Source: Verrucomicrobiia bacterium
GTDB taxonomy: Bacteria > Verrucomicrobiota > Verrucomicrobiia > Limisphaerales > UBA1319
Direction of reading: 5' to 3'
DNA length: 64,000 bases
Assembly (NCBI GenBank): GCA_963664225.1
Contig: OY760937.1
Coordinates: 608,001 to 672,000, forward strand
A model generated the notes under the pieces. It had not been told where the DNA came from and made no database searches. It was given only the letters and a program-made list of their open reading frames with translations. A program made the translations under genes and the position numbers. Shown one piece after another: positions 8,774 through 16,770 of this stretch. The first letter of the stretch is position 1. Each line of letters begins with the position of its first letter.

Positions 8774-9191
8774 AGCCGGCATTTGTTCGATCCCAAATAT
8801 TAAGGGGTCCACCCATAGGTTGGTTCGGTTATGGACTCACACGAATGAAAAGGGTGGGCGAATGGGGCCTTGTATGGAGCCCTGAATCCTGATTGTTCCA
8901 ACCAAGTCAGACTAGTTTTTGAAATGACTCAGTCCTCTCACGATATGGTCGCACCGAGACACGGAGAACGCTGCAAAGGGGCGCGCCGGGAGTGAATCGG
9001 AATTATTAATGACGAAAACTCAGGATGGAGTCAGAACCTGCAAAGGCGTTATCAAACCACAAAAAAACCATAAAAGAACAAGTTCTTTTTAATTAATATT
9101 GATGTAAACACAATATAACAATACACTTTATTAAAGTGTATGCATGTTCGAGCGCTCAGAATCTGCAGTCAAAAAGTATTCAACAACAGAT

Positions 9192-10532
9192 ATGAAACAT
9201 TTCGAATTTGTTAATGAAATTGGAAGAGGTGGATTTGGCGTGGTTGAAAAAGTCCAAGATGATGCCGGTAGCTTGTATGCTCGAAAGTCATTTGAACCCG
9301 CTTCGTTTATCCCGATATCTGCACACGATGGACTACGCGATCGATTCAAGCGAGAAGTAAAAATACAGGCAGCGATTGGAGGTCGTGAAATTATGCCCGT
9401 GTTACATTCTCATTTGGAGCATGCAAAACCATGGTTCATTATGCCTCTCGCGGACAAAACCTATGATCAACAGATTGTGGAAGAGCGGGCATCCGGCAGC
9501 GTTGATATTGACGCGATTGCCGACATATTGAACGCATTAGAGTACCTCCACGATTTGGGTTACGTCCATCGTGATTTGAATCCTAAGAACATTCTCCTAC
9601 ATGATGCTCACTGGAAATTGTCTGATTTCGGAGCTGTGCTGCCACCATCTGGTCAAACCGTGACATTGACCGAAGGCACTGTAATATACACAGAGCAATA
9701 TTGTGCTCCTGAGCAAAGAAACTCATTTCACAAAGCAAAAGCATCTGCGGACGTTTATTCCTTTGGCTGCATCCTACACGATATATTTGGGAAGGGACCG
9801 AGAATTCCATATTCTAAACAAAGTGCAATCGGGCGTGTTGGATTGCTTATAGAAAAATGTACTGAAATTAAACCCGACCGTCGACCGAGCATCAAGGTCC
9901 TTCGTGGAATGCTTCTCGAAACGCTCGTTGAAATAGGCGGCCATTGCAAAGTAGTCGACGAGAAGTCAGAGCATTGGCTGCAAAAATTGAGTTTAATTGA
10001 CGAATGGAGAGACGAAGAATTTGATGACTTTGCGAGATTCTTTGGCCAACTCGATATCGAAGAGCGATTAGATGGACACGAAAATGAGTATATTTGTTCT
10101 TTATCGACACCATTTCTAACGCGATTACGGCCTGAGATGTTAGTAAAAATTATGCAACGCGATGATGGTGTTTCAAATGCAGTTATGGAGAAATACTGTG
10201 AATGGTCCCGCAAAGATGAATGCGCATTTCATTTTGCTGACACGGTATGCGGTTGCTTAACTGCAATTTTCGATGCAGGGGATGCAGAAACTAAAGCTCT
10301 TGCCCTTACTGCACTTATCTCACTGGGAAATTCACATAATCGTTGGTATGTGATGCGGAATATGCTTCGACGATGTTCCGCTGAAAATATCAGTGCTGAG
10401 CTCGCTAGACGTTTTTCGATTGAAATTAAAACGGAAGAATTACAGTCGGAATTTAGACGTTGTGTTATTGAAATAAATTGGGATGCTCAGCTGCTTCATC
10501 CTGAGTTAGCTAAACTCTGCACCTATGCCTGA
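9192..10532 (+). CDS. Hanks-type Ser/Thr protein kinase with a helical C-terminal domain
   Basis: IGRGGFG, ARK, HRDLNPKNIL, DFG, APE and DVYSFG motifs; no TM helix. The ORF is open from 9144. Confidence 0.93.
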   Translation: MKHFEFVNEIGRGGFGVVEKVQDDAGSLYARKSFEPASFIPISAHDGLRDRFKREVKIQAAIGGREIMPVLHSHLEHAKPWFIMPLADKTYDQQIVEERASGSVDIDAIADILNALEYLHDLGYVHRDLNPKNILLHDAHWKLSDFGAVLPPSGQTVTLTEGTVIYTEQYCAPEQRNSFHKAKASADVYSFGCILHDIFGKGPRIPYSKQSAIGRVGLLIEKCTEIKPDRRPSIKVLRGMLLETLVEIGGHCKVVDEKSEHWLQKLSLIDEWRDEEFDDFARFFGQLDIEERLDGHENEYICSLSTPFLTRLRPEMLVKIMQRDDGVSNAVMEKYCEWSRKDECAFHFADTVCGCLTAIFDAGDAETKALALTALISLGNSHNRWYVMRNMLRRCSAENISAELARRFSIEIKTEELQSEFRRCVIEINWDAQLLHPELAKLCTYA

Positions 10533-10650
10533 TGGAACGAAAAGACAACATGGGGTGGTCGGGTGCGGGAAGATCCACTACACCTGATCACTGGGCTTGC
10601 TTCGATAAATCGGACACAGACGACGCATATAGGTTGATTGGATCTATTTT

Positions 10651-10970
10651 GGGTGCATGACAGAATTCTTCGGCAAGCGAAAAAGACCTTTAAAAGGGCA
10701 TGTGAGTATATACGAAACAAATATAGCAAGAGTTTCGGGAATGGCCGGGTGCCGATTGAGGGTCCGGCAAAAATCAGATCTGAAAGGACGACCGCCCTCA
10801 TCCCTTCCTTCTCCCCCAGGAGAAGGAGAAGTATTGCGAGCCCTGGGTTTATTGCACGGTTTGGAGGATACCACCGCGCCGGATTATATGCCCCACACCG
10901 CCGACTGGCGTTCTGGCTGGGTTCGTACGGTTTAGGCTTTTACCAGCTTCCTGAATTTTGTCCTGCACCC
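10651..10970. mobile_element. MITE-like element bounded by inverted repeats, with an internal REP-like hairpin
   Basis: GGGTGCATGACAGAATTC at 10651 and GAATTTTGTCCTGCACCC ending at 10970; homologous ends at 22716-22917 and 47160-47365. Confidence 0.7.
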
Positions 10971-10972
10971 AT

Positions 10973-11137
10973 CTAATTTAAAGCAGGAGACATGTAATCG
11001 AGTTTGCTGTGTAAATGCTGTCGATTATAGAAGGTCTCGATGTAATCAAAGATTGCCTGTCGGGCCTGGGCTCGGGTCGCATAGGCCCGGCGATAAACCA
11101 GTTCGTGTTTGACCGTGCTCCAAAAGGATTCCACGGC
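10973..11137 (-). pseudogene. IS3-family transposase C-terminal remnant
   Basis: [15 protein letters not shown]...[27 protein letters not shown] matches the IS3 integrase-core C-terminus. The N-terminal part is replaced by the tandem array. Confidence 0.88.
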
Positions 11138-14100
11138 GCGCCGTTGGCGCTGGGAATGTAAAACCGGAACGAATGTTTTGCGACCCCTGCCGGGGTCGGG
11201 GTCGATTGCATGGGGTTTCCGGGGGTGTCGGTCGCAGACGACCTCAACCGCCCGGCTAATCGCTAGCATCCCTCCGGGATGGTGTTGGTAAACATGGTGC
11301 TCTTGGAATGGGCGCGATTGAGAGCATGGATGGGCAGGTTTGGGAAAGGGGATTTGATTCAACGCCTACAGCGTTGGGGTTTCCAGGGGCGATTACCCTG
11401 GGTAGGCCTCGGCGGCCAATCCGGGGCTGAGTGATTGCAACCCGTTCCGGGTTGCCGGTGAGGAGGTTCTGGCAGGAGAGGCCGTGGATAGGGATAATGG
11501 ATAATTGACAATTGAAGGAAGGGAAGTTGCGCAGGTCGCGGGATGGGATGGAGCGGGCTTCAGCCCTTGTTGTGGTTGTGGCAGATTACCTGGGCCGGTG
11601 GCCCAGGCTGGTATGAGGTCGCGCCGTTGGCGCTGGGGCTGGGTGTGATTGAGGTTGGGACGGTGTTGTTCACGGGGGGGGTGATTGTGCAGCAGTTGAG
11701 GAAAAACGCGGAGGGCGAAGGGCGGATGATGGCTCGGCAGGAGCCTCGCCCTACCGGGGGTGACTGGGATTTGTAAATCCGGAATGAATTTTCTGCGACC
11801 CCAGCCGGGGTCGGGTTCGATTGCGTGGGGGTTCCGGGGGTGTCGGTCGCGGACGACCTCAACCACCCGGCTAATCGCTTGCATCCCTCCGGGATGGCGA
11901 TGAGAAACATGGCGCTCTTGGAATGGGCGCGATTGAGAGCATGGATGGGCAGGTTTGGGAAAGGGGATTTGATTCAACGCCTACAGCGTTGGGGTTTCCA
12001 GGGGCGATTACCCCGGGTAGGCCTCGGCGGCCAACCCGGGGCTGAGTGATTGCAACCCGTTCCGGGTTGCCGGTCGGGATGTTATGGTAGGAGAGGCCGT
12101 GGATAGGGATAATGGATAATTGACAATTGAGGGAAGGGAAGTTTCGCAGGTCGCGGGATGGGATGGAGCGGGCTTTCAGCCCTTGTCGCGATTGTGGCGG
12201 ATTACCTGGGCCGGTGGCCCAGGCTGGTATGGGGTCGCGCCGTTGGCGCTGGGGCTGGGTGTGATTGAGGTTGGGACGGTGATGTTCACGGGGGGGGTGA
12301 TTGTGCAGCAGTTGAGGAAAAACGCGGAGGGCGAAGGGCGGATGATGGCTCGGCAGGAGCCTCGCCCTACCGGGGGTGACTGGGATTTGTAAATCCGGAA
12401 TGAATTTTCTGCGACCCCTGCCGGGGTCGGGGCCGATTGCGTGGGGTTTCCGGGGGTGTCGGTCGCGGACGACCTCAACCGCCCGGCTAATCGCTTGCAT
12501 CCCTCCGGGATGGCGTTGGTAAACATGGTGCTCTTGGAATGGGCGCGATTGATCATGGATGGGCAGGATGGGGAAAGGGGATTTGATTCAACGCCTACAG
12601 CGTTGGGGTTTCCAGGGGCGATTACCCCGGGTAGGCCTCGGCGGCCAACCCGGGGCTGAGTGATTGCAACCCGTTCCGGGTTGCCGGTCGGGATGTTATG
12701 GTAGGAGAAGCCGTGGATAGGGATAATGGATAATTGACAATTGAGGGAAGGGAAGTTTCGCATGTCGCGGGATGGGATGGAGCGGGCTTTAAGCCCTTGT
12801 CGCGATTGTGGCGGATTACCTGGGCCGGGGCCCAGGCTGGTATGGGGTCGCGCCGTTGGCGCTGGGGCTGGGTGTGATTGAGGTTGGGACGGTGTTGTTC
12901 ACGGGGGGGTGATTGTGCAGCAGTTGAGGAAAAACGCGGAGGGCGAAGGGCGGATGATGGCTCGGCAGGAGCCTCGCCCTACCGGGGGTGACTGGGATTT
13001 GTAAATCCGGAATGAATTTTCTGCGACCCCTGCCGGGGTCGGGGTCGATTGCGTGGGGTTTTCGGGGGTGTCGGTCGCGGACGACCTCAACCGCCCGGCT
13101 AATCGCTTGCATACCTTCGGGATGGCGTTGGTAAACATGGTGCTCTTGGAATGGGCGCGATTGAGAGCATGGATGGGCAGGTTTGGGAAAGGGGATTTGA
13201 TTCAACGCCTACAGCGTTGGGGTTTCCAGGGGCGATTACCCCGGGTAGGCCTCGGCGGCCAACCCGGGGCTGAGTGATTGCAACCCGTTCCGGGTTGCCG
13301 GTCGGGATGTTATGGTAGGAGAGGCCGTGGATAGGGATAATGGATAATTGACAATTGAGGGAAGGGAAGTTTCGCATGTCGCGGGATGGGATGGAGCGGG
13401 CTTTCAGCCCTTGTCGCGATTGTGGCGGATTACCTGGGCCGGTGGCCCAGGCTGGTATGGGGTCGCGCCGTTGGCGCTGGGGCTGGGTGTGATTGAGGTT
13501 GGGACGGTGTTGTTCACGGGGGGGGGTGATTGTGCAGCAGTTGAGGAAAAACGCGGAGGGCGAAGGGCGGATGATGGCTCGGCAGGAGCCTCGCCCTACC
13601 GGGGGTGACTGGGATTTGTAAATCCGGAATGAATTTTCTACGACCCCTGCCGGGGTCGGGGTCGATTGCATGGAGTTTCCGGGGGTATCGGTCGCGGACG
13701 ACCTCAACCGCCCGGCTAATCGCTTGCATCCCTCCGGGATGGCTTTGGTAAACATGGTGCTCTTGGAATGGGTGCGATTGATCATGGATGGGCAGGATGG
13801 GGAAAGGTGATTTGATTCAACGCCTACAGCGTTGGGGTTTCCAGGGGCGATTACCCCGGGTAGGCCTCGGCGGCCAACCCGGGGCTGAGTGATTGCAACC
13901 CGTTCCGGGTTGCCGGTCGGGATGTTATGGTAGGAGAAGCCGTGGATAGGGATAATGGATAATTGACAATTGAGGGAAGTGAAGTTTCGCAGGTCGCGGG
14001 ATGGGATGGAGCGGGCTTCAGCCCTTGTTGTGGTTGTGGCAGATTACCTGGGCCGGTGGCCCAGGCTGGTATGGGGTCGCGCCGTTGGCGCTGGGGCTGG

Positions 14101-14984
14101 GTGTGATTGAGGTTGGGACGGTGTTGTTCACGGGGGGGGTGATTGTGCAGCAGTTGAGGAAAAACGCGGAGGGCGAAGGGCGGATGATGGCTCGGCAGGA
14201 GCCTCGCCCTACCGGGGGTGACTGGGATTTGTAAATCCGGAATGAATTTTCTGCGACCCCTGCCGGGGTCGGGGCCGATTGCGTGGGGTTTCCGGGGGTG
14301 TCGGTCGCGGACGACCTCAACCGCCCGGCTAATCGCTTGCATCCCTCCGGGATGGCGATGAGAAACATGGCGCTCTTGGAATGGGCGCGATTGAGAGCAT
14401 GGATGGGCAGGTTTGGGAAAGGGGATTTGATTCAACGCCTACAGCGTTGGGGTTTCCAGGGGCGATTACCCCGGGTAGGCCTCGGCGGCCAACCCGGGGC
14501 TGAGTGATTGCAACCCGTTCCGGGTTGCCGGTCGGGATGTTATGGTAGGAGAGGCCGTGGATAGGGATAATGGATAATTGACAATTGAGGGAAGGGAAGT
14601 TTCGCAGGTCGCGGGATGGGATGGAGCGGGCTTCAGCCCTTGTCGCGATTGTGGCAGATTACCTGGGCCGGTGGCCCAGGCCGGTATGGGGTCGCGCCGT
14701 TGGCGCTGGGGCTGGGTGTGATTGAGGTTGGGACGGTGTTGTTCACGGGGGGGGTGATTGTGCAGCAGTTGAGGAAAAACGCGGAGGGCGAAGGGCGGAT
14801 GATGGCTCGGCAGGAGCCTCGCCCTACCGGGGGCGACTGGGATTTGTAAATCCGGAATGAATTTTCTGCGACCCCTGCCGGGGTCGGGGTCGATTGCGTG
14901 GGGTTTCCGGGGGTGTCGGTCGCGGACGACCTCAACCGCCCGGCTAATCGCTTGCATCCCTCCGGGATGGCGTTGGTAAACATG
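11137..14984. repeat. tandem array of ~6.3 copies of a 614-615 bp non-coding palindrome-rich unit
   Basis: Anchor GATTTGATTCAACGCCTACAGCG recurs at 11351, 11966, 12580, 13194, 13809 and 14424. Confidence 0.97.
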
Positions 14985-15157
14985 CCTCCCCGATGGGGCA
15001 TGGAGGAAATGGATAATGGGGATTCGAATTTGCTCGATTTTGAGGAGGTGGATTTTTGGTGGCAGGGTGAACAATATGAAAGGCTCTGGCTTGATTGCGG
15101 CGGGGATTTATGAGAGGGATTGGGAAGGGCTGGGTTTGCGGTAAAATTGTTGAGGGA

Positions 15158-15592
15158 ATGATGAATCGATTTTTTTGGCAGCGTTGGTTGGTGACGACTT
15201 TGTCGGTGCTGGTGGCCAGTCATGTGGTGCCGGGGATTCGCTATGAATCGCTGGGGGGGCTCGTTCTGGCGGCACTGGCGCTGGGGGTGCTCAATGCGCT
15301 GGTGCGGCCTGTGATTGTTTTTTTTACGCTGCCGCTGGTGCTGTTCAGCCTGGGGTTTTTCCTGCTGGTGATTAATGCGGGGGTGCTTTACATGGTGGGC
15401 CAGATTGTTCCGGGGTTTCACGTGGTGGGATTCTGGCCGGCGTTCTGGGGAAGCCTGGTGATCAGTGTGGTGGGATTTTTTGCGAACCGGGTGATTGGAC
15501 CGCCGCAATTACCCAGGCAGGGATCAAATCCGGGAAGCGGACGGGCGAACGGGCCCGGCGGCAGTGGCAGTGGGCCGGTTATCGATGTTTAA
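15158..15592 (+). CDS. YvlD / phage holin family (Phage_holin_4_2) membrane protein
   Basis: Four TM helices; LGVLNALVRPV...LPLVLFSLGFFLLVINA...GFWPAFWGSLVIS signature. Confidence 0.9.
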   Translation: MMNRFFWQRWLVTTLSVLVASHVVPGIRYESLGGLVLAALALGVLNALVRPVIVFFTLPLVLFSLGFFLLVINAGVLYMVGQIVPGFHVVGFWPAFWGSLVISVVGFFANRVIGPPQLPRQGSNPGSGRANGPGGSGSGPVIDV

Positions 15593-15709: not shown

Positions 15710-16261
15710 TCAAAGCATTGCATCATCTTGACCCTTCGTATTTCGGATTTCGGGTTTAACGCCTTCGAGGGCCAGGAGGCGTTTTTTCCAATCCAATCCG
15801 CCGCTGTATCCGCCGAGGGCGCCGTTAGCGGCTAATACACGGTGGCAGGGTATGAGCAGGGGGATGGGATTGGCCCCGCAGGCAGCCCCAACGGCGCGGG
15901 CCGCTTTGGGCTTTTCGAGGGCGGCGGCCATTTTTCCGTAGGAGCTGGCTTCGCCCAATGGGATTTGCTGCATTGCAGTCCAGACACGCTTTTGAAAGGG
16001 GGTTCCCAGGCTCAGGTCCAGCGGGGGGAGTGTCGTTATTTTTTGGCCGGTCACGGCTTTTTGGACTGCGGCGGTTGTCTGCTTGATCCACGAGGCGGGC
16101 ACTGTGCCGGGTTCCAGCGCCGGATTGGCCTGGTGGGAATTATCCCCGGGAAACAGGAGGCGCAGCAGACCGTGGGTGGAAAAAAGGGCGGTAAATTCGC
16201 CCAGCTCTGTGGCGATTGGAACCGCCAAAACGGCTGTTTTCGAAAGCGCGTTCGATTTCAT
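15710..16261 (-). CDS. ogt: methylated-DNA--protein-cysteine methyltransferase
   Basis: GTPFQKRVW, IPLGEASSYG, AARAVGAACGANP, active-site PCHRV, GGYSGG. Confidence 0.95.
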   Translation of the reverse strand: MKSNALSKTAVLAVPIATELGEFTALFSTHGLLRLLFPGDNSHQANPALEPGTVPASWIKQTTAAVQKAVTGQKITTLPPLDLSLGTPFQKRVWTAMQQIPLGEASSYGKMAAALEKPKAARAVGAACGANPIPLLIPCHRVLAANGALGGYSGGLDWKKRLLALEGVKPEIRNTKGQDDAML

Positions 16262-16263
16262 GG

Positions 16264-16770
16264 CTAAAACTTTTTCAAAAGTAAGCCAAGAATGAACCAA
16301 AGCAAGAAGAGGAAGATGATGGCCAGGAGTATGACCCGTCGGCGGGCGATGCGTTTTTCGCGGCGGAGGGGTTGCAGGCCTTTGATGTTGCCCGCGGCCA
16401 GGAGGCTGAGCAGTTTGGGATTGGAGGGCGCGGGTGGTTTGATGATGGAGATGCAGCGGTCCCACAGGCCCACGAGATCGAATTTGCGCACGCCGGCTTC
16501 GTTGTAATGCAAGGGGCTGGATTCTTTTTCCTGGCCGTTGTGAATCCGGGTGTGATCCACTTCCTCGAAGATGGGTTCGCGATGGGCCTGGGAGGAGTCC
16601 AGGCGGCCCGCGCCGGGTTGGTGGGGAAGGGCGGTGGAACGGTAGTGGGGCTGGGGCGGTTCAGGGACCTTTTTGAGCTTTTGAATCTGGCTCTCCAGGG
16701 CGGCAATTTCCGCCTCGAGCTTTCGGGCCCGCTGCGATATGGGATCGCCTGGTTTTGAGAAAATCCCCAT
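16264..16770 (-). CDS. hypothetical protein with an N-terminal coiled coil and a C-terminal TM anchor
   Basis: Operonic spacing with its neighbours; hydrophobic C-terminus. Confidence 0.75.
   Translation of the reverse strand: MGIFSKPGDPISQRARKLEAEIAALESQIQKLKKVPEPPQPHYRSTALPHQPGAGRLDSSQAHREPIFEEVDHTRIHNGQEKESSPLHYNEAGVRKFDLVGLWDRCISIIKPPAPSNPKLLSLLAAGNIKGLQPLRREKRIARRRVILLAIIFLFLLWFILGLLLKKF

What the first reader, a model, noticed from the sequence alone, without database searches (positions are those of the whole stretch)
11137..14984. 3.85-kb non-coding macrosatellite of 614-615 bp composite units
Seen: six full units plus a partial one, with periods 615, 614, 614, 615, 615. There are no unique spacers. 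Indels (a G-tract of 7, 8 or 9 nt and others) break every ORF, yet the period stays within 1 bp. Each unit strings together four palindromic modules and two micro-repeat types that also occur singly elsewhere in the window. Long non-coding tandem units of this kind are uncommon in bacteria. Inference: an amplified, BIME-like higher-order REP mosaic, or an array of structured RNAs or ssDNA substrates for an HUH (RAYT/IS200-like) nuclease encoded elsewhere. This is the best candidate here for an undescribed system.
Basis: partly seen in the sequence, partly recalled or inferred. Interest (0 to 1): 0.8.

Follow-up and report, generated by a model that had tools for sequence, protein, structure and literature searches.

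The report
Tandem array of REP-type hairpin mosaics
This is a real 3.85-kb non-coding tandem repeat whose 615-bp unit is stitched together from small hairpin repeats that belong to hairpin-cutting (Y1/RAYT-type) transposase genes elsewhere in the genome; it is an unusually large example of a known kind of bacterial repeat cluster.

Summary
Window 11138-14984 carries six 612-616-bp units plus a 153-bp partial unit, 93-98.5% alike, with no spacers and no gene.

Each unit is a one-orientation mosaic of dispersed, extragenic hairpin modules.
- Module B abuts two Y1 transposase genes (R6, R7) in this genome. It flanks R6-type genes in 50 of 80 loci from other genomes; the C profile, as control, hit 3 of 80.
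- Module C flanks R8 here and R8-type genes in 24 of 29 loci; the B profile, as control, hit 0 of 29.
- Module A forms arrays on both sides of a TnpA-REP-like gene (R10).
- Module E flanks a Y1 gene in relatives only.

The array reads (B-X-C-D-E-F-A)x6 + B. That layout fits amplification by unequal recombination between two direct B copies, followed by homogenisation. This mechanism is inferred, not shown.

18 of 54 long-period tandem arrays in this genome contain the same module families, so this is the extreme case of a genome-wide habit.

Tandem REP/REPIN clusters, BIMEs and TIR-flanked Y1 genes are in print. This scan has also noted REP mosaics in other Verrucomicrobia, on other DNA. Interest is modest.

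The parts
10596..11137 (-). Truncated IS3-family element: the 3' end of its transposase gene plus its terminal region. It is interrupted at 10651-10970 by a ~320-bp multi-copy MITE-like element. This forms the left border of the array.
   Evidence: Pfam rve_2 at 5.8e-12 on ORF 10973-11362. Eleven other genomic copies cover about 10600-10650 and 11000-11137 (sampled every 20 nt); the inserted 10651-10970 segment has about 12 full-length copies and up to 50 partial ones. Contigs of intact copies leave the window after 11137 and join 10650 to 10984.
11138..11154 (+). Isolated copy of the third hairpin of module E (GCGCC-GTT-GGCGC), lying directly before the first module B. The F-A segment that separates E from B in all later units is missing here.
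   Evidence: Sequence read. The same direct E-to-B adjacency occurs at genome 1105698-1105916 and 4882035-4882280.
11144..14831 (+). Six tandem units: u1 11144-11758, u2 11759-12374, u3 12375-12986, u4 12987-13601, u5 13602-14216, u6 14217-14831. Each reads B-X-C-D-E-F-A.
   Evidence: u1 is the most divergent (92.9-94.0% to the others). u2 and u6 share variants, as do u3 and u5. TRF prefers period 1229.
14832..14984 (+). Terminal partial unit. It consists of module B only and ends close to the 3' limit of the dispersed B family.
   Evidence: 100% to the internal consensus over the B core. Family extent comes from nhmmer coverage.
11786..11900 (+). Module B in unit 2, about 115 nt with three hairpins: 11795-11813, 11834-11870 and 11881-11896. 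It is the flanking repeat of the Y1 transposase genes R6 and R7.
   Evidence: About 30 copies outside the array. It abuts the stop codons of R6 and R7, with an inverted partial copy upstream of each. It flanks R6-type genes in 50 of 80 loci of other genomes. Stems are kept in 27-29 of 29 copies, and one stem pair switches between U-A (17 copies) and C-G (9 copies).
11905..11934 (+). Linker X. By eye it resembles a degenerate copy of the repeat that flanks Y1 gene R4.
   Evidence: Compared by eye with the R4 flank and with the paralogous locus. No copy outside the array at 60% coverage or more. Inference only.
11963..12070 (+). Module C in unit 2, about 108 nt with three hairpins: 11975-11991, 12011-12041 (contains GTAG) and 12052-12070. 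It is the flanking repeat of Y1 transposase gene R8.
   Evidence: About 76 copies outside the array. An inverted pair flanks R8. It lies within 150 nt of R8-type genes in 24 of 29 loci of other genomes.
12077..12153 (+). Linker D, which holds the micro-repeat GGATAATGGATAATTGACAATTGA at 12107-12130.
   Evidence: One 16-mer of it occurs at 11 other genome sites. The 12-mer also occurs at window 15008 and 35382.
12153..12258 (+). Module E in unit 2, with hairpins at 12170-12182, 12205-12223 and 12237-12249. No cognate Y1 gene was found for it in this genome.
   Evidence: About 8 copies outside the array. E-like inverted pairs flank a Y1_Tnp gene in 3 of 3 fetched loci of relatives; those loci were picked because hits coincided. 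That protein is only 43-49% identical to any Y1 protein of this genome.
12287..12298 (+). G-tract inside linker F. Its length varies between units: 8, 8, 7, 9, 8, 8.
12336..12371 (+). Module A in unit 2, a short REP: stem GGCTC, loop GGCAG, stem GAGCC, tail TCGCCCTACC, set inside a longer GGGCG/CGCCC stem. It is the repeat that surrounds the TnpA-REP-like gene R10.
   Evidence: 80 copies outside the array, 72 on the + strand and 8 on the - strand, many of them in short tandem arrays. Arrays at genome 4676162-4676400 and 4677135-4677752 bracket R10 at 4676433-4676888. R10 scores 70.6 bits on NCBIfam REP_Tyr_transpos and matches PDB 4ER8.

Best explanation
The stretch is non-coding repeat DNA: a higher-order tandem array whose 615-bp unit is a one-orientation mosaic of REP/TIR-type hairpin modules from at least four families (A, B, C, E), joined by array-specific linkers (X, D, F).

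Shown here: each module family is a dispersed, extragenic, hairpin-forming repeat. Each is the flanking repeat of its own Y1 (HUH) transposase lineage. B goes with R6/R7 and C with R8; these are IS200-like proteins with ~105-nt three-hairpin flanks. A goes with R10, which is TnpA-REP-like. E goes with a lineage seen only in relatives.

Inferred from what is known of TnpA-REP and IS200/IS605 enzymes: these proteins bind and cut the hairpins as single-stranded DNA, and this is how the modules spread and pile up next to each other.

Inferred from the anatomy: a cluster E-B-X-C-D-E-F-A-B first formed in one intergenic gap. Unequal homologous recombination or replication slippage between the two direct B copies then amplified the B-to-B segment to six copies. 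Gene conversion and further unequal exchange, partly in a two-unit register, have since kept the units 93-98.5% alike and the period within a few bases.

I take the array to have no dedicated cellular function. At most it acts as a hairpin-rich spacer.
For: 1. The array is real and non-coding.
- Extent, period and unit identity.
- 0 of 5 array ORFs have a Pfam match.
- No Rfam family comes near its gathering score; the best is 19.1 bits against 37.

2. The modules are dispersed repeats. nhmmer gives 112 hits outside the array: about 30 for B, about 76 for C and about 8 for D/E. A has 80 copies outside the array.

3. The modules are extragenic. 91 of 112 dispersed hits lie fully outside any ORF of 200 aa or more, whereas 83% of random 120-mers lie inside one.

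4. The modules form hairpins. Fold z-scores are -4.0 and -5.9, and B stems are kept in 27-29 of 29 copies.

5. The modules have cognate nucleases.
- The genome has 9 PF01797 genes, plus R10.
- B abuts R6 and R7, and C flanks R8.
- The commonest flanking 16-mers occur 23 times for R6/R7 and 32-35 times for R8, against 2-3 times for the two IS200-like genes R1 and R2.
- No near-identical Y1 gene pairs exist; the closest pair is R6/R7 at 79.7%.
- Across genomes, B occurs in 50 of 80 R6-type loci against C in 3 of 80. C occurs in 24 of 29 R8-type loci against B in 0 of 29.
- The HUH and Tyr positions align with solved IS608/ISDra2-type TnpA structures for R6, and with E. coli TnpA-REP (4ER8) for R10.

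6. Evidence for the amplification model.
- The array is (B...A)x6 plus one extra B that ends near the B family's own 3' limit.
- The edge unit u1 is the most divergent. Non-adjacent units share variants (u2/u6, u3/u5), and TRF prefers period 1229.
- 18 of 54 tandem arrays with period 100 or more in this genome carry the same module families.
- An unamplified paralogous mosaic with the same module order, 88-95% identical, lies at genome 4882035-4886477.

7. Independent support for the tandem layout. Short-read contigs of four public runs run through E-F-A into B. A u1-specific contig sits at about flank depth (20.6 against 18.7 in X2), and contigs matching the other units sit at 4-5.8 times flank depth in X2 and 3.8 times in X3. 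The tool warns that depth is not copy number, and these runs may be the source sample.
Against: - No step of the mechanism was observed. Nothing here shows that R6, R8 or R10 cut these modules, or that recombination rather than the nuclease made the array.
- The expected signature of two different parental B copies is weak. u1's B core is 94.6% identical to the internal consensus and the rest of u1 is 96.7%, so the first B is not clearly a separate paralogue.
- B, C and E are about 105 nt with three hairpins and lack a leading GTAG. They do not meet the textbook REP definition of 20-50 nt preceded by GTAG (PMC8266576, passages).
- NCBIfam files R3-R8 under IS200/IS605, not under REP-associated tyrosine transposase.
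- All modules lie in one orientation, with strong G-over-C excess on the + strand (GC skew 0.27-0.39). Neutral piling-up does not explain this. It could point to a strand-specific role as RNA or as single-stranded DNA.
- Exact copy number rests on one assembly.
Confidence: 0.75

Rival explanations
1. The array was built by the nuclease itself. A composite segment bounded by hairpins was excised as a single-stranded circle by a Y1/HUH enzyme, copied by rolling-circle synthesis or repeated strand transfer, and re-inserted as a concatemer.
For: HUH enzymes leave a 3'-OH that can prime replication. [quoted passage not shown] The unit starts and ends at hairpin modules. The B-X-C composite recurs co-linearly in 7 nhmmer hits at four other loci, as if composites could move as blocks.
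Against: The array is not a whole number of units. The extra terminal B is what recombination between two B copies predicts, while a concatemer cut at one site predicts whole units. Shared variants between non-adjacent units and the 1229-bp super-period fit unequal exchange. No circle junction could be looked for: only contigs were available, not raw reads.
Confidence: 0.1
2. The array is functional as RNA or as a protein-binding platform. It could be a transcribed multi-hairpin leader, sponge or stabiliser for the downstream membrane-protein gene, or a landing pad or decoy for the Y1 enzymes.
For: All modules lie in one orientation, the same as the downstream gene at 15150-15592. There is a strong G excess on that strand. 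The + strand folds better as RNA than the - strand, -260 against -198 kcal/mol. The period has been maintained.
Against: Promoter-like and terminator-like sites are not enriched: 2 found against 2.4 expected, and 1 against 6.5. No Rfam family fits. The syntenic holin-like/ogt locus of the same-genus genome G001 has no B or C module and no tandem repeat in 8.2 kb, so the neighbouring genes do without the array. Stems are almost all Watson-Crick, so the G excess sits in linkers and loops rather than in G-U pairs.
Confidence: 0.08
3. The copy number, or the 614/615 variation, is an assembly artefact of a long-read assembly.
For: The genome is a single contig. The 1-nt period differences sit partly in a G homopolymer of 7-9 nt, a typical long-read error site.
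Against: Units differ at 80 columns in a structured, mosaic pattern. Independent short-read contigs carry the head-to-tail junction and inter-unit variants, and sit at several-fold flank depth.
Confidence: 0.04
4. The array is a decayed gene for a repetitive protein with 205-residue repeats (615 = 3 x 205).
For: The period is a multiple of three in some units. Minus-strand stop-free stretches reach 314 codons.
Against: The tested ORFs have no Pfam match. The unit is made of modules that are extragenic repeats elsewhere and that flank transposase genes. Frames are broken every one to one and a half units.
Confidence: 0.02

Closest known systems
Tandemly repeated REP/REPIN clusters of Pseudomonas fluorescens SBW25, including the GI-GIII two-family tandem clusters (Bertels and Rainey 2011, PMC3116915; passages read)
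   Same: Nearly identical units that contain REP-type hairpins plus their flanking sequence are repeated head to tail in extragenic space. More than one REP family can share a unit. Each REP family has its own Y1 gene elsewhere in the genome.
   Different: The passages give the largest SBW25 cluster as four REPINs and just over 700 bp. Here there are six and a quarter units of 615 bp (3.85 kb) and four families per unit. The modules are single and in direct orientation, not inverted REP doublets, and the host is a Verrucomicrobia lineage.
E. coli BIMEs and the REPtron (rayT/TnpA-REP with Y, Z1 and Z2 REPs; PMC8266576, passages read; PDB 4ER8 matched)
   Same: These are also mosaics of hairpin repeats that occur as consecutive tandem copies, with a cognate HUH Y1 enzyme flanked by them. 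R10 with its A arrays looks most like this layout.
   Different: BIMEs alternate REP and inverted REP of one system, each 20-50 nt and preceded by GTAG. Here all modules point one way. Three of the four families are about 105 nt with three hairpins and belong to IS200-like rather than TnpA-REP-like proteins.
TIRtrons / TIRYTs (Di Nocera et al. 2013, PMC3733652; passages and section 16 read)
   Same: Y1 transposase genes are flanked by long inverted repeats that partly self-pair, are members of moderately abundant repeat families, and occur singly, as dimers or in clusters. That paper also notes that a Verrucomicrobia species (O. terrae) is rich in GTAG repeats.
   Different: I did not compare R6 or R8 with that paper's TIRYT groups, whose alignment is in a supplement I did not open. 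Nor did I test its GGGGWSAS motif properly. The text I read describes no 615-bp multi-family tandem array.
REP-mediated tandem chromosomal duplications in Salmonella (Shyamala et al. 1990; recalled, seen in no call)
   Same: Recombination between two direct REP copies gives a tandem duplication whose join point is a REP. This is the mechanism I propose for the first step.
   Different: Those duplications span genes and are unstable laboratory events. Here the amplified segment is itself only repeats and has persisted long enough to diverge by 1.5-7%.

Membership tests
REP / RAYT (REPtron-type) repeat system | Multi-copy, dispersed, mostly extragenic repeat | tested here: met
   Copies outside the array: about 30 for B, about 76 for C and about 8 for D/E; 80 for A. 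91 of 112 hits lie fully outside ORFs of 200 aa or more, against 83% of random segments inside one.
REP / RAYT (REPtron-type) repeat system | Imperfect palindromes able to form stem-loops | tested here: met
   Unit fold z-scores are -4.0 and -5.9 as single-stranded DNA. B stems are kept in 27-29 of 29 copies, with one U-A/C-G switch. C pairs show CG/GC/UA/AU alternatives.
REP / RAYT (REPtron-type) repeat system | A cognate Y1 (HUH) gene flanked by the same repeats | tested here: met
   In this genome: B at R6 and R7, C at R8, and A arrays on both sides of R10. In other genomes: B in 50 of 80 loci against control C in 3 of 80; C in 24 of 29 against control B in 0 of 29. E is met in relatives only, 3 of 3 picked loci.
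REP / RAYT (REPtron-type) repeat system | HUH motif and catalytic tyrosine in the protein | tested here: met
   PF01797 at E 1e-19 to 6.5e-38 for R1-R8. R6's DHVHIL and EGY align with DYVHLL and PSY of PDB 2FYX. R10's PDHLHF and Y..NPV align with PEHMHC and YIYINPV of 4ER8. That these are the catalytic residues is recalled from the solved families, not tested.
REP / RAYT (REPtron-type) repeat system | Gene essentially single-copy, with abundant flanking 16-mers (criteria of PMC5581495, passages) | tested here: met
   The closest Y1 pair is R6/R7 at 79.7%. Maximum flanking 16-mer counts are 17 (R4), 10 (R5), 23 (R6, R7), 35 (R8) and 64 (R9), against 2-3 for R1 and R2. R3 does not meet it (2 and 5).
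REP / RAYT (REPtron-type) repeat system | Repeat of 20-50 nt preceded by a conserved tetranucleotide, usually GTAG (PMC8266576) | tested here: not met
   B, C and E are about 105-115 nt with three hairpins. GTAG occurs only inside the middle hairpin of C. A is 25-36 nt but has no GTAG. The modules therefore work like REPs but are not textbook REPs.
REP / RAYT (REPtron-type) repeat system | Protein passes NCBIfam REP_Tyr_transpos (NF047646, cut-off 80 bits) | tested here: not met
   R9 passes at 98.7 bits. R10 scores 70.6, below the cut-off. R3-R8 instead pass transpos_IS200 at 56-77 bits against a cut-off of 55.
BIME (E. coli type) | REP and inverted REP alternate, separated by linkers, as consecutive tandem copies | tested here: not met
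   All 7 array hits, and every module within them, lie on the + strand. The unit holds four different families rather than one REP/iREP pair.
Tandemly repeated REPIN cluster (SBW25 type) | Nearly identical units of repeat plus flanking sequence, head to tail | tested here: met
   Six units at 92.9-98.5% identity, including linkers X, D and F, which have 0-1 copies outside the array.
Tandemly repeated REPIN cluster (SBW25 type) | The repeated core is a REPIN (two REPs in inverted orientation forming one long hairpin) | tested here: not met
   Within a unit each family occurs once, in direct orientation. Head-to-head doublets of B or C are seen only in other genomes' loci.
TIRtron / TIRYT (Di Nocera 2013) | Y1 gene flanked by long terminal inverted repeats that belong to a repeat family | tested here: met
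   Inverted B or C copies of about 100 nt lie within a few to about 30 nt of the gene ends, here and in other genomes.
TIRtron / TIRYT (Di Nocera 2013) | Shared GGGGWSAS motif in the TIR; protein groups as in that paper's alignment | not tested
   I ran no motif search. The protein alignment is in a supplement I did not open.
Known structured RNA family (Rfam) | Match at or above the family's gathering score | tested here: not met
   Only Acido-Lenti-1 matched, at 18.4-19.1 bits against a gathering score of 37, once per unit on the third hairpin of B.
CRISPR array | Short repeats separated by unique spacers | tested here: not met
   Units abut without unique sequence.
Repetitive protein gene | One frame open across units, and a recognisable domain | tested here: not met
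   The longest stop-free stretch is 314 codons. 0 of 5 ORFs have a Pfam match.

The most novel reading that the evidence does not exclude
The array is not a passive product of recombination. In this reading the Y1/HUH enzymes made it, or use it. A hairpin-bounded 615-bp composite would be copied as a single-stranded circle or rolling-circle concatemer and re-inserted. Once present, the one-orientation, G-rich multi-family array would serve as a shared landing pad, reservoir or decoy for four different Y1 transposase lineages. That would make it a bacterial analogue of a satellite maintained by its own nucleases.
Probability: 0.1. Interest if true: 0.6.

Novelty: new member of a known kind. Interest (0 to 1): 0.3.

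Why it matters
The case shows how far REP-type repeats can go in a bacterial genome. Hairpin modules belonging to four different Y1 transposase lineages are fused into one 615-bp unit and amplified to a 3.85-kb macrosatellite, and about a third of the genome's long-period tandem arrays are built the same way.

For annotators, it explains a class of spurious proline/arginine-rich ORFs and assembly-breaking repeats in Verrucomicrobia.

For people who study REPIN-RAYT systems, the useful by-product is a set of cleanly paired module-enzyme couples with cross-genome controls: B with R6-type, C with R8-type, A with R10-type and E with a fourth lineage. These pairs could be tested biochemically for hairpin recognition.

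It does not open a new kind of system.

Tried and rejected
- TRF with default settings found nothing, because its longest period is 500. I reran it in a script with period 2000.
- My first repeat finder had a mistyped reference and was corrected.
- The Rfam permissive scan gave only sub-threshold Acido-Lenti-1 hits. I rejected them as an identification.
- The promoter/terminator scan showed no enrichment.
- Replication-strand bias of module orientation could not be assessed. The cumulative GC skew rises monotonically with no clear origin or terminus.
- The look-up of sequencing runs listed no RNA holder, so expression is untested. Read laying had contigs only, so no starts, ends, circles or true copy number could be read.
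- The test for a 'parental' first B copy was not decisive: 94.6% against 96.7%.
- RNAalifold on the C family alignment failed to recover the hairpins because the loops vary. I relied on single-sequence folds and on the pair counts it did give.
- The composite unit was not found in 300 other genomes of the order at E <= 1e-22, but only 2 candidates per genome were scored and most are fragmented MAGs. At module level, 16 of 40 other genomes matched, and the same-genus genome G001 did not.
- The A-flanked ORF of relative G036 has no Pfam match. It was placed only through NCBIfam, at 71.9 bits, below the cut-off.
- R5's flanking repeat resembles module E in layout only. blastn found a match of just 14 nt, so I do not call R5 the partner of E.
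- A sequence look-up in the scan's earlier findings found no look-alike stretch.
- I did not use the search for homologous proteins, structure prediction or complex prediction. Nothing here depended on them.

Full report
**Observation**

The window is bases 608001-672000 of a single-contig 5.78-Mb genome with 56% G+C.

The repeat finder gives start-to-start spacings of 615, 614, 614, 615, 615. blastn of one unit against the genome places the array at window 11150-14984. It comprises a 526-nt copy, five full copies and a 237-nt copy, at 93.5-100% identity. TRF with its default 500-nt limit saw nothing. With a 2000-nt limit it reports period 1229 x 3.1 at 96% matches.

Cut at module B, the array is six units of 612-616 nt plus a 153-nt partial unit. 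Pairwise identity is 92.9-98.5%, with 80 variable columns of 619. The G-tract is 8, 8, 7, 9, 8, 8 nt long. There are no spacers.

Minus-strand stop-free stretches reach 314 codons, but 0 of 5 tested ORFs match Pfam. The + strand has a strong G excess, with GC skew 0.27-0.39 across the array.

As single-stranded DNA the unit folds far better than shuffles on both strands: z = -4.0 and -5.9, with 0 of 20 shuffles reaching it in each case.

Short-read contigs of four public runs cover the unique left flank exactly. They run through E-F-A into B, that is, across the unit-to-unit junction. A u1-specific contig sits at about flank depth, and contigs matching the other units sit at about 4-6 times flank depth in two runs. 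The tool warns that such depth is not copy number, and the runs may be the source sample.

**Surroundings**

To the left lies a Ser/Thr kinase gene (9144-10532). Next comes a truncated IS3-family element on the minus strand (rve_2 match). Its homology to 11 other genomic copies stops at 11137, and a ~320-bp multi-copy MITE-like element is inserted in it at 10651-10970.

To the right lie a Phage_holin_4_2-family membrane protein gene (15150-15592, + strand) and an O6-methylguanine methyltransferase gene (15710-16465, - strand).

In the same-genus genome G001 the holin-like and ogt genes are also neighbours. In 8.2 kb there I found no B or C module and no tandem repeat.

**Anatomy of the unit**

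Coordinates below are for unit 2, 11759-12374.

- B (11786-11900): three hairpins.
- X: a linker.
- C (11963-12070): three hairpins, the middle one containing GTAG.
- D: a linker with a GGATAAT/TGACAAT micro-repeat.
- E (12153-12258): three hairpins.
- F: a linker with the G-tract.
- A (12336-12371): a short palindrome with a TCGCCCTACC tail.

B, C and E share one layout: a small hairpin, a spacer, a long CCGGG/CCTGGG-stemmed hairpin, a CT-starting linker, then a small hairpin. I read this layout from the sequence.

The array begins with an isolated third hairpin of E (11138-11154) followed directly by B. It ends with a B that stops near the B family's own 3' limit. The array therefore reads [E fragment] (B-X-C-D-E-F-A)x6 B.

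**The modules are dispersed extragenic repeats**

nhmmer with one unit finds 112 hits outside the array: about 30 cover B, about 76 cover C and about 8 cover D/E. A, too short for nhmmer, has 80 blastn-short hits outside the array, 72 on the + strand and 8 on the - strand, many in short tandem arrays. X and D have none outside the array, and F has one.

91 of 112 dispersed hits lie wholly outside any ORF of 200 aa or more, while 83% of random 120-mers lie inside one.

B stems are paired in 27-29 of 29 copies, and one stem pair switches between U-A (17 copies) and C-G (9 copies). C shows CG/GC/UA/AU alternatives at two pairs.

Within the 64-kb window the palindromic modules do not recur outside the array. 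One micro-repeat does recur, at 15008 and 35382.

**The modules belong to Y1 (HUH) transposase genes**

The genome has 9 PF01797 matches.

- R1 and R2 look like ordinary IS200 genes. They are 71% identical to each other, and their commonest flanking 16-mers occur only 2-3 times.
- R6 and R7 are 79.7% identical. Each has a full B starting at its stop codon and an inverted partial B just upstream.
- R8 has inverted C copies on both sides.

Flanking 16-mers occur 23 times for R6/R7, 32-35 times for R8 and up to 64 times for R9.

The pairings hold across genomes and are specific.

- A B profile built from this genome's copies hits 50 of 80 loci that encode R6-type proteins. These are mostly Verrucomicrobiota, Planctomycetota and Kiritimatiellia MAGs at 54-72% protein identity. 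Typically an inverted copy ends about 10-15 nt before the gene and a direct copy starts 3-30 nt after it. The C profile hits 3 of the same 80 loci.
- The C profile hits within 150 nt of the gene in 24 of 29 loci that encode R8-type proteins in other genomes of the order. The B profile hits 0 of 29.
- E-like inverted pairs flank a PF01797 gene in three relatives. I picked these loci because hits coincided. That protein is only 43-49% identical to any Y1 protein here, so E's partner was not found in this genome.
- An inverted A pair flanks a 164-aa ORF in relative G036. Its 60%-identical homologue here (R10, genome 4676433-4676888) sits between two A arrays. R10 scores 70.6 bits on NCBIfam REP_Tyr_transpos (cut-off 80) and matches E. 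coli TnpA-REP, PDB 4ER8.

R6 matches solved IS608/ISDra2-type TnpA structures, with the HUH and Tyr positions aligned. NCBIfam files R3-R8 under IS200/IS605, and R9 under REP-associated tyrosine transposase.

**How the array most likely arose**

The following points are shown by the calls.

- The array has the (B...A)x6 + B layout.
- The edge unit is the most divergent. Non-adjacent units share variants (u2/u6, u3/u5, and u1/u5 in part of E). TRF prefers a two-unit super-period.
- 18 of 54 tandem arrays with period 100 or more in this genome carry the same module families, with periods from 108 to 1331 nt. This array is the longest of them.
- An unamplified mosaic with the same module order lies at genome 4882035-4886477. 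It reads E-B-X, then an IS3 insertion, C, D/E-F-A, a gene, and B-X, at 88-95% identity.
- B-then-C co-linear composites recur in 7 nhmmer hits at four other loci.

My inference has three steps. First, modules accumulated next to each other in one gap. Second, unequal recombination or slippage between two direct B copies amplified the B-to-B segment. Third, conversion has kept the units alike.

That REP copies can serve as join points of tandem duplications is something I recall from work on Salmonella (Shyamala et al. 1990), seen in no call. The action of the Y1 enzymes on these hairpins is inferred from the TnpA-REP and IS200/IS605 literature (PMC8266576, passages). It was not tested.

A weakness of the model is that the first B is not clearly a different paralogue: its core is 94.6% identical to the internal consensus, and the rest of u1 is 96.7%. 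The uniform orientation and G excess also remain unexplained.

**Comparison with what is known**

- Bertels and Rainey (PMC3116915, passages) describe 16 tandemly repeated REPIN clusters in P. fluorescens SBW25. The largest has four REPINs and is just over 700 bp. They also describe GI-GIII two-family tandem clusters and RAYT genes next to such clusters.
- Corneloup et al. (PMC8266576, passages) define REPs as 20-50 nt preceded by GTAG, and BIMEs as REP/inverted-REP pairs in consecutive tandem copies.
- Di Nocera et al. (PMC3733652, passages and section 16) describe Y1 genes flanked by long inverted repeats that form repeat families ('TIRtrons'). They note GTAG-repeat richness in a Verrucomicrobia species and mention that complex REP arrays might arise from circular intermediates.
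- Bertels et al. 2017 (PMC5581495, passages) give the single-copy and abundant-flanking-16-mer criteria that I applied.

I searched for 'RAYT, REPIN, tandem', for 'repetitive extragenic palindromic, Verrucomicrobia' and for 'RAYTs, domesticated, IS200, REPINs'. I saw no description of a multi-family 615-bp array of this size, but these three searches are a thin basis for saying there is none.

Earlier notes of this scan record REP/BIME-like mosaics and a RAYT inside a 166-bp hairpin array in other Verrucomicrobia genomes. No look-alike of this sequence was found among them.

**Verdict**

The array is an unusually long, four-family, one-orientation member of a known kind of element, the tandemly amplified REP/TIR cluster with cognate Y1 transposases. 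It is not a new system.

Still open: whether it is transcribed, whether the nucleases rather than recombination made it, its exact copy number, and why every module points the same way.

Noticed in passing
window 10596-11137: Nested mobile elements. A truncated IS3-family copy (11 other copies in the genome) carries a ~320-bp MITE-like insert at 10651-10970, which has about 12 full-length and up to about 50 partial copies genome-wide.
   Followed up: partly
L023-L102 (R6-type loci of other genomes): The ~105-nt module B is recognisable at the nucleotide level beside R6-type Y1 genes in 50 of 80 loci from several phyla, by record title: Verrucomicrobiota, Planctomycetota, Kiritimatiellia, BRC1, Nitrospirales and others. 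Some loci carry head-to-head doublets without a gene between them. This suggests the gene plus its flanks moves, or has moved, as a unit between lineages.
   Followed up: partly
genome 4676162-4677752 (outside the window; L139): A TnpA-REP-like gene (R10, 4676433-4676888) sits between two tandem arrays of the short module A with a ~33-34-nt period. This layout resembles the E. coli REPtron. TRF arrays of A at 756183-756600 and 4677104-4677756 lie in fully open frames, probably only because the period is a multiple of three.
   Followed up: partly
genome 4882035-4886477 (outside the window): An unamplified paralogue of the unit with the same module order. It is interrupted by a full IS3-family element between X and C, and its X position carries an intact R4-type repeat.
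   Followed up: partly
whole genome: The cumulative GC skew rises almost monotonically, from 0 to about 21 in 10-kb steps, with a plateau from about 1.45 to 3.8 Mb. It lacks the usual V shape, so origin and terminus cannot be read from it.
   Followed up: no
window 12107-12130 and per unit; also window 15008 and 35382; 11 other genome sites: A short motif, AATGGATAATTGACAAT, often followed by GGACAAT/TGACAAT repeats and preceded by GGGCGGAGG-like runs, recurs in intergenic places. I do not know what it is.
   Followed up: partly
window 11248-11281 and once per unit: The third hairpin of module B gives weak Rfam Acido-Lenti-1 matches, 18.4-19.1 bits against a gathering score of 37. That Rfam motif may itself be a REP-type hairpin.
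   Followed up: no
whole genome: Of 54 tandem arrays with period 100 nt or more, 36 lack the module families I defined. Several are long, near-identical and fully open, so probably coding: for example 4947558-4949715 (216 nt x 9.9), 5251312-5253675 (678 nt x 3.5) and 3373957-3380939 (1860 nt x 3.7).
   Followed up: no
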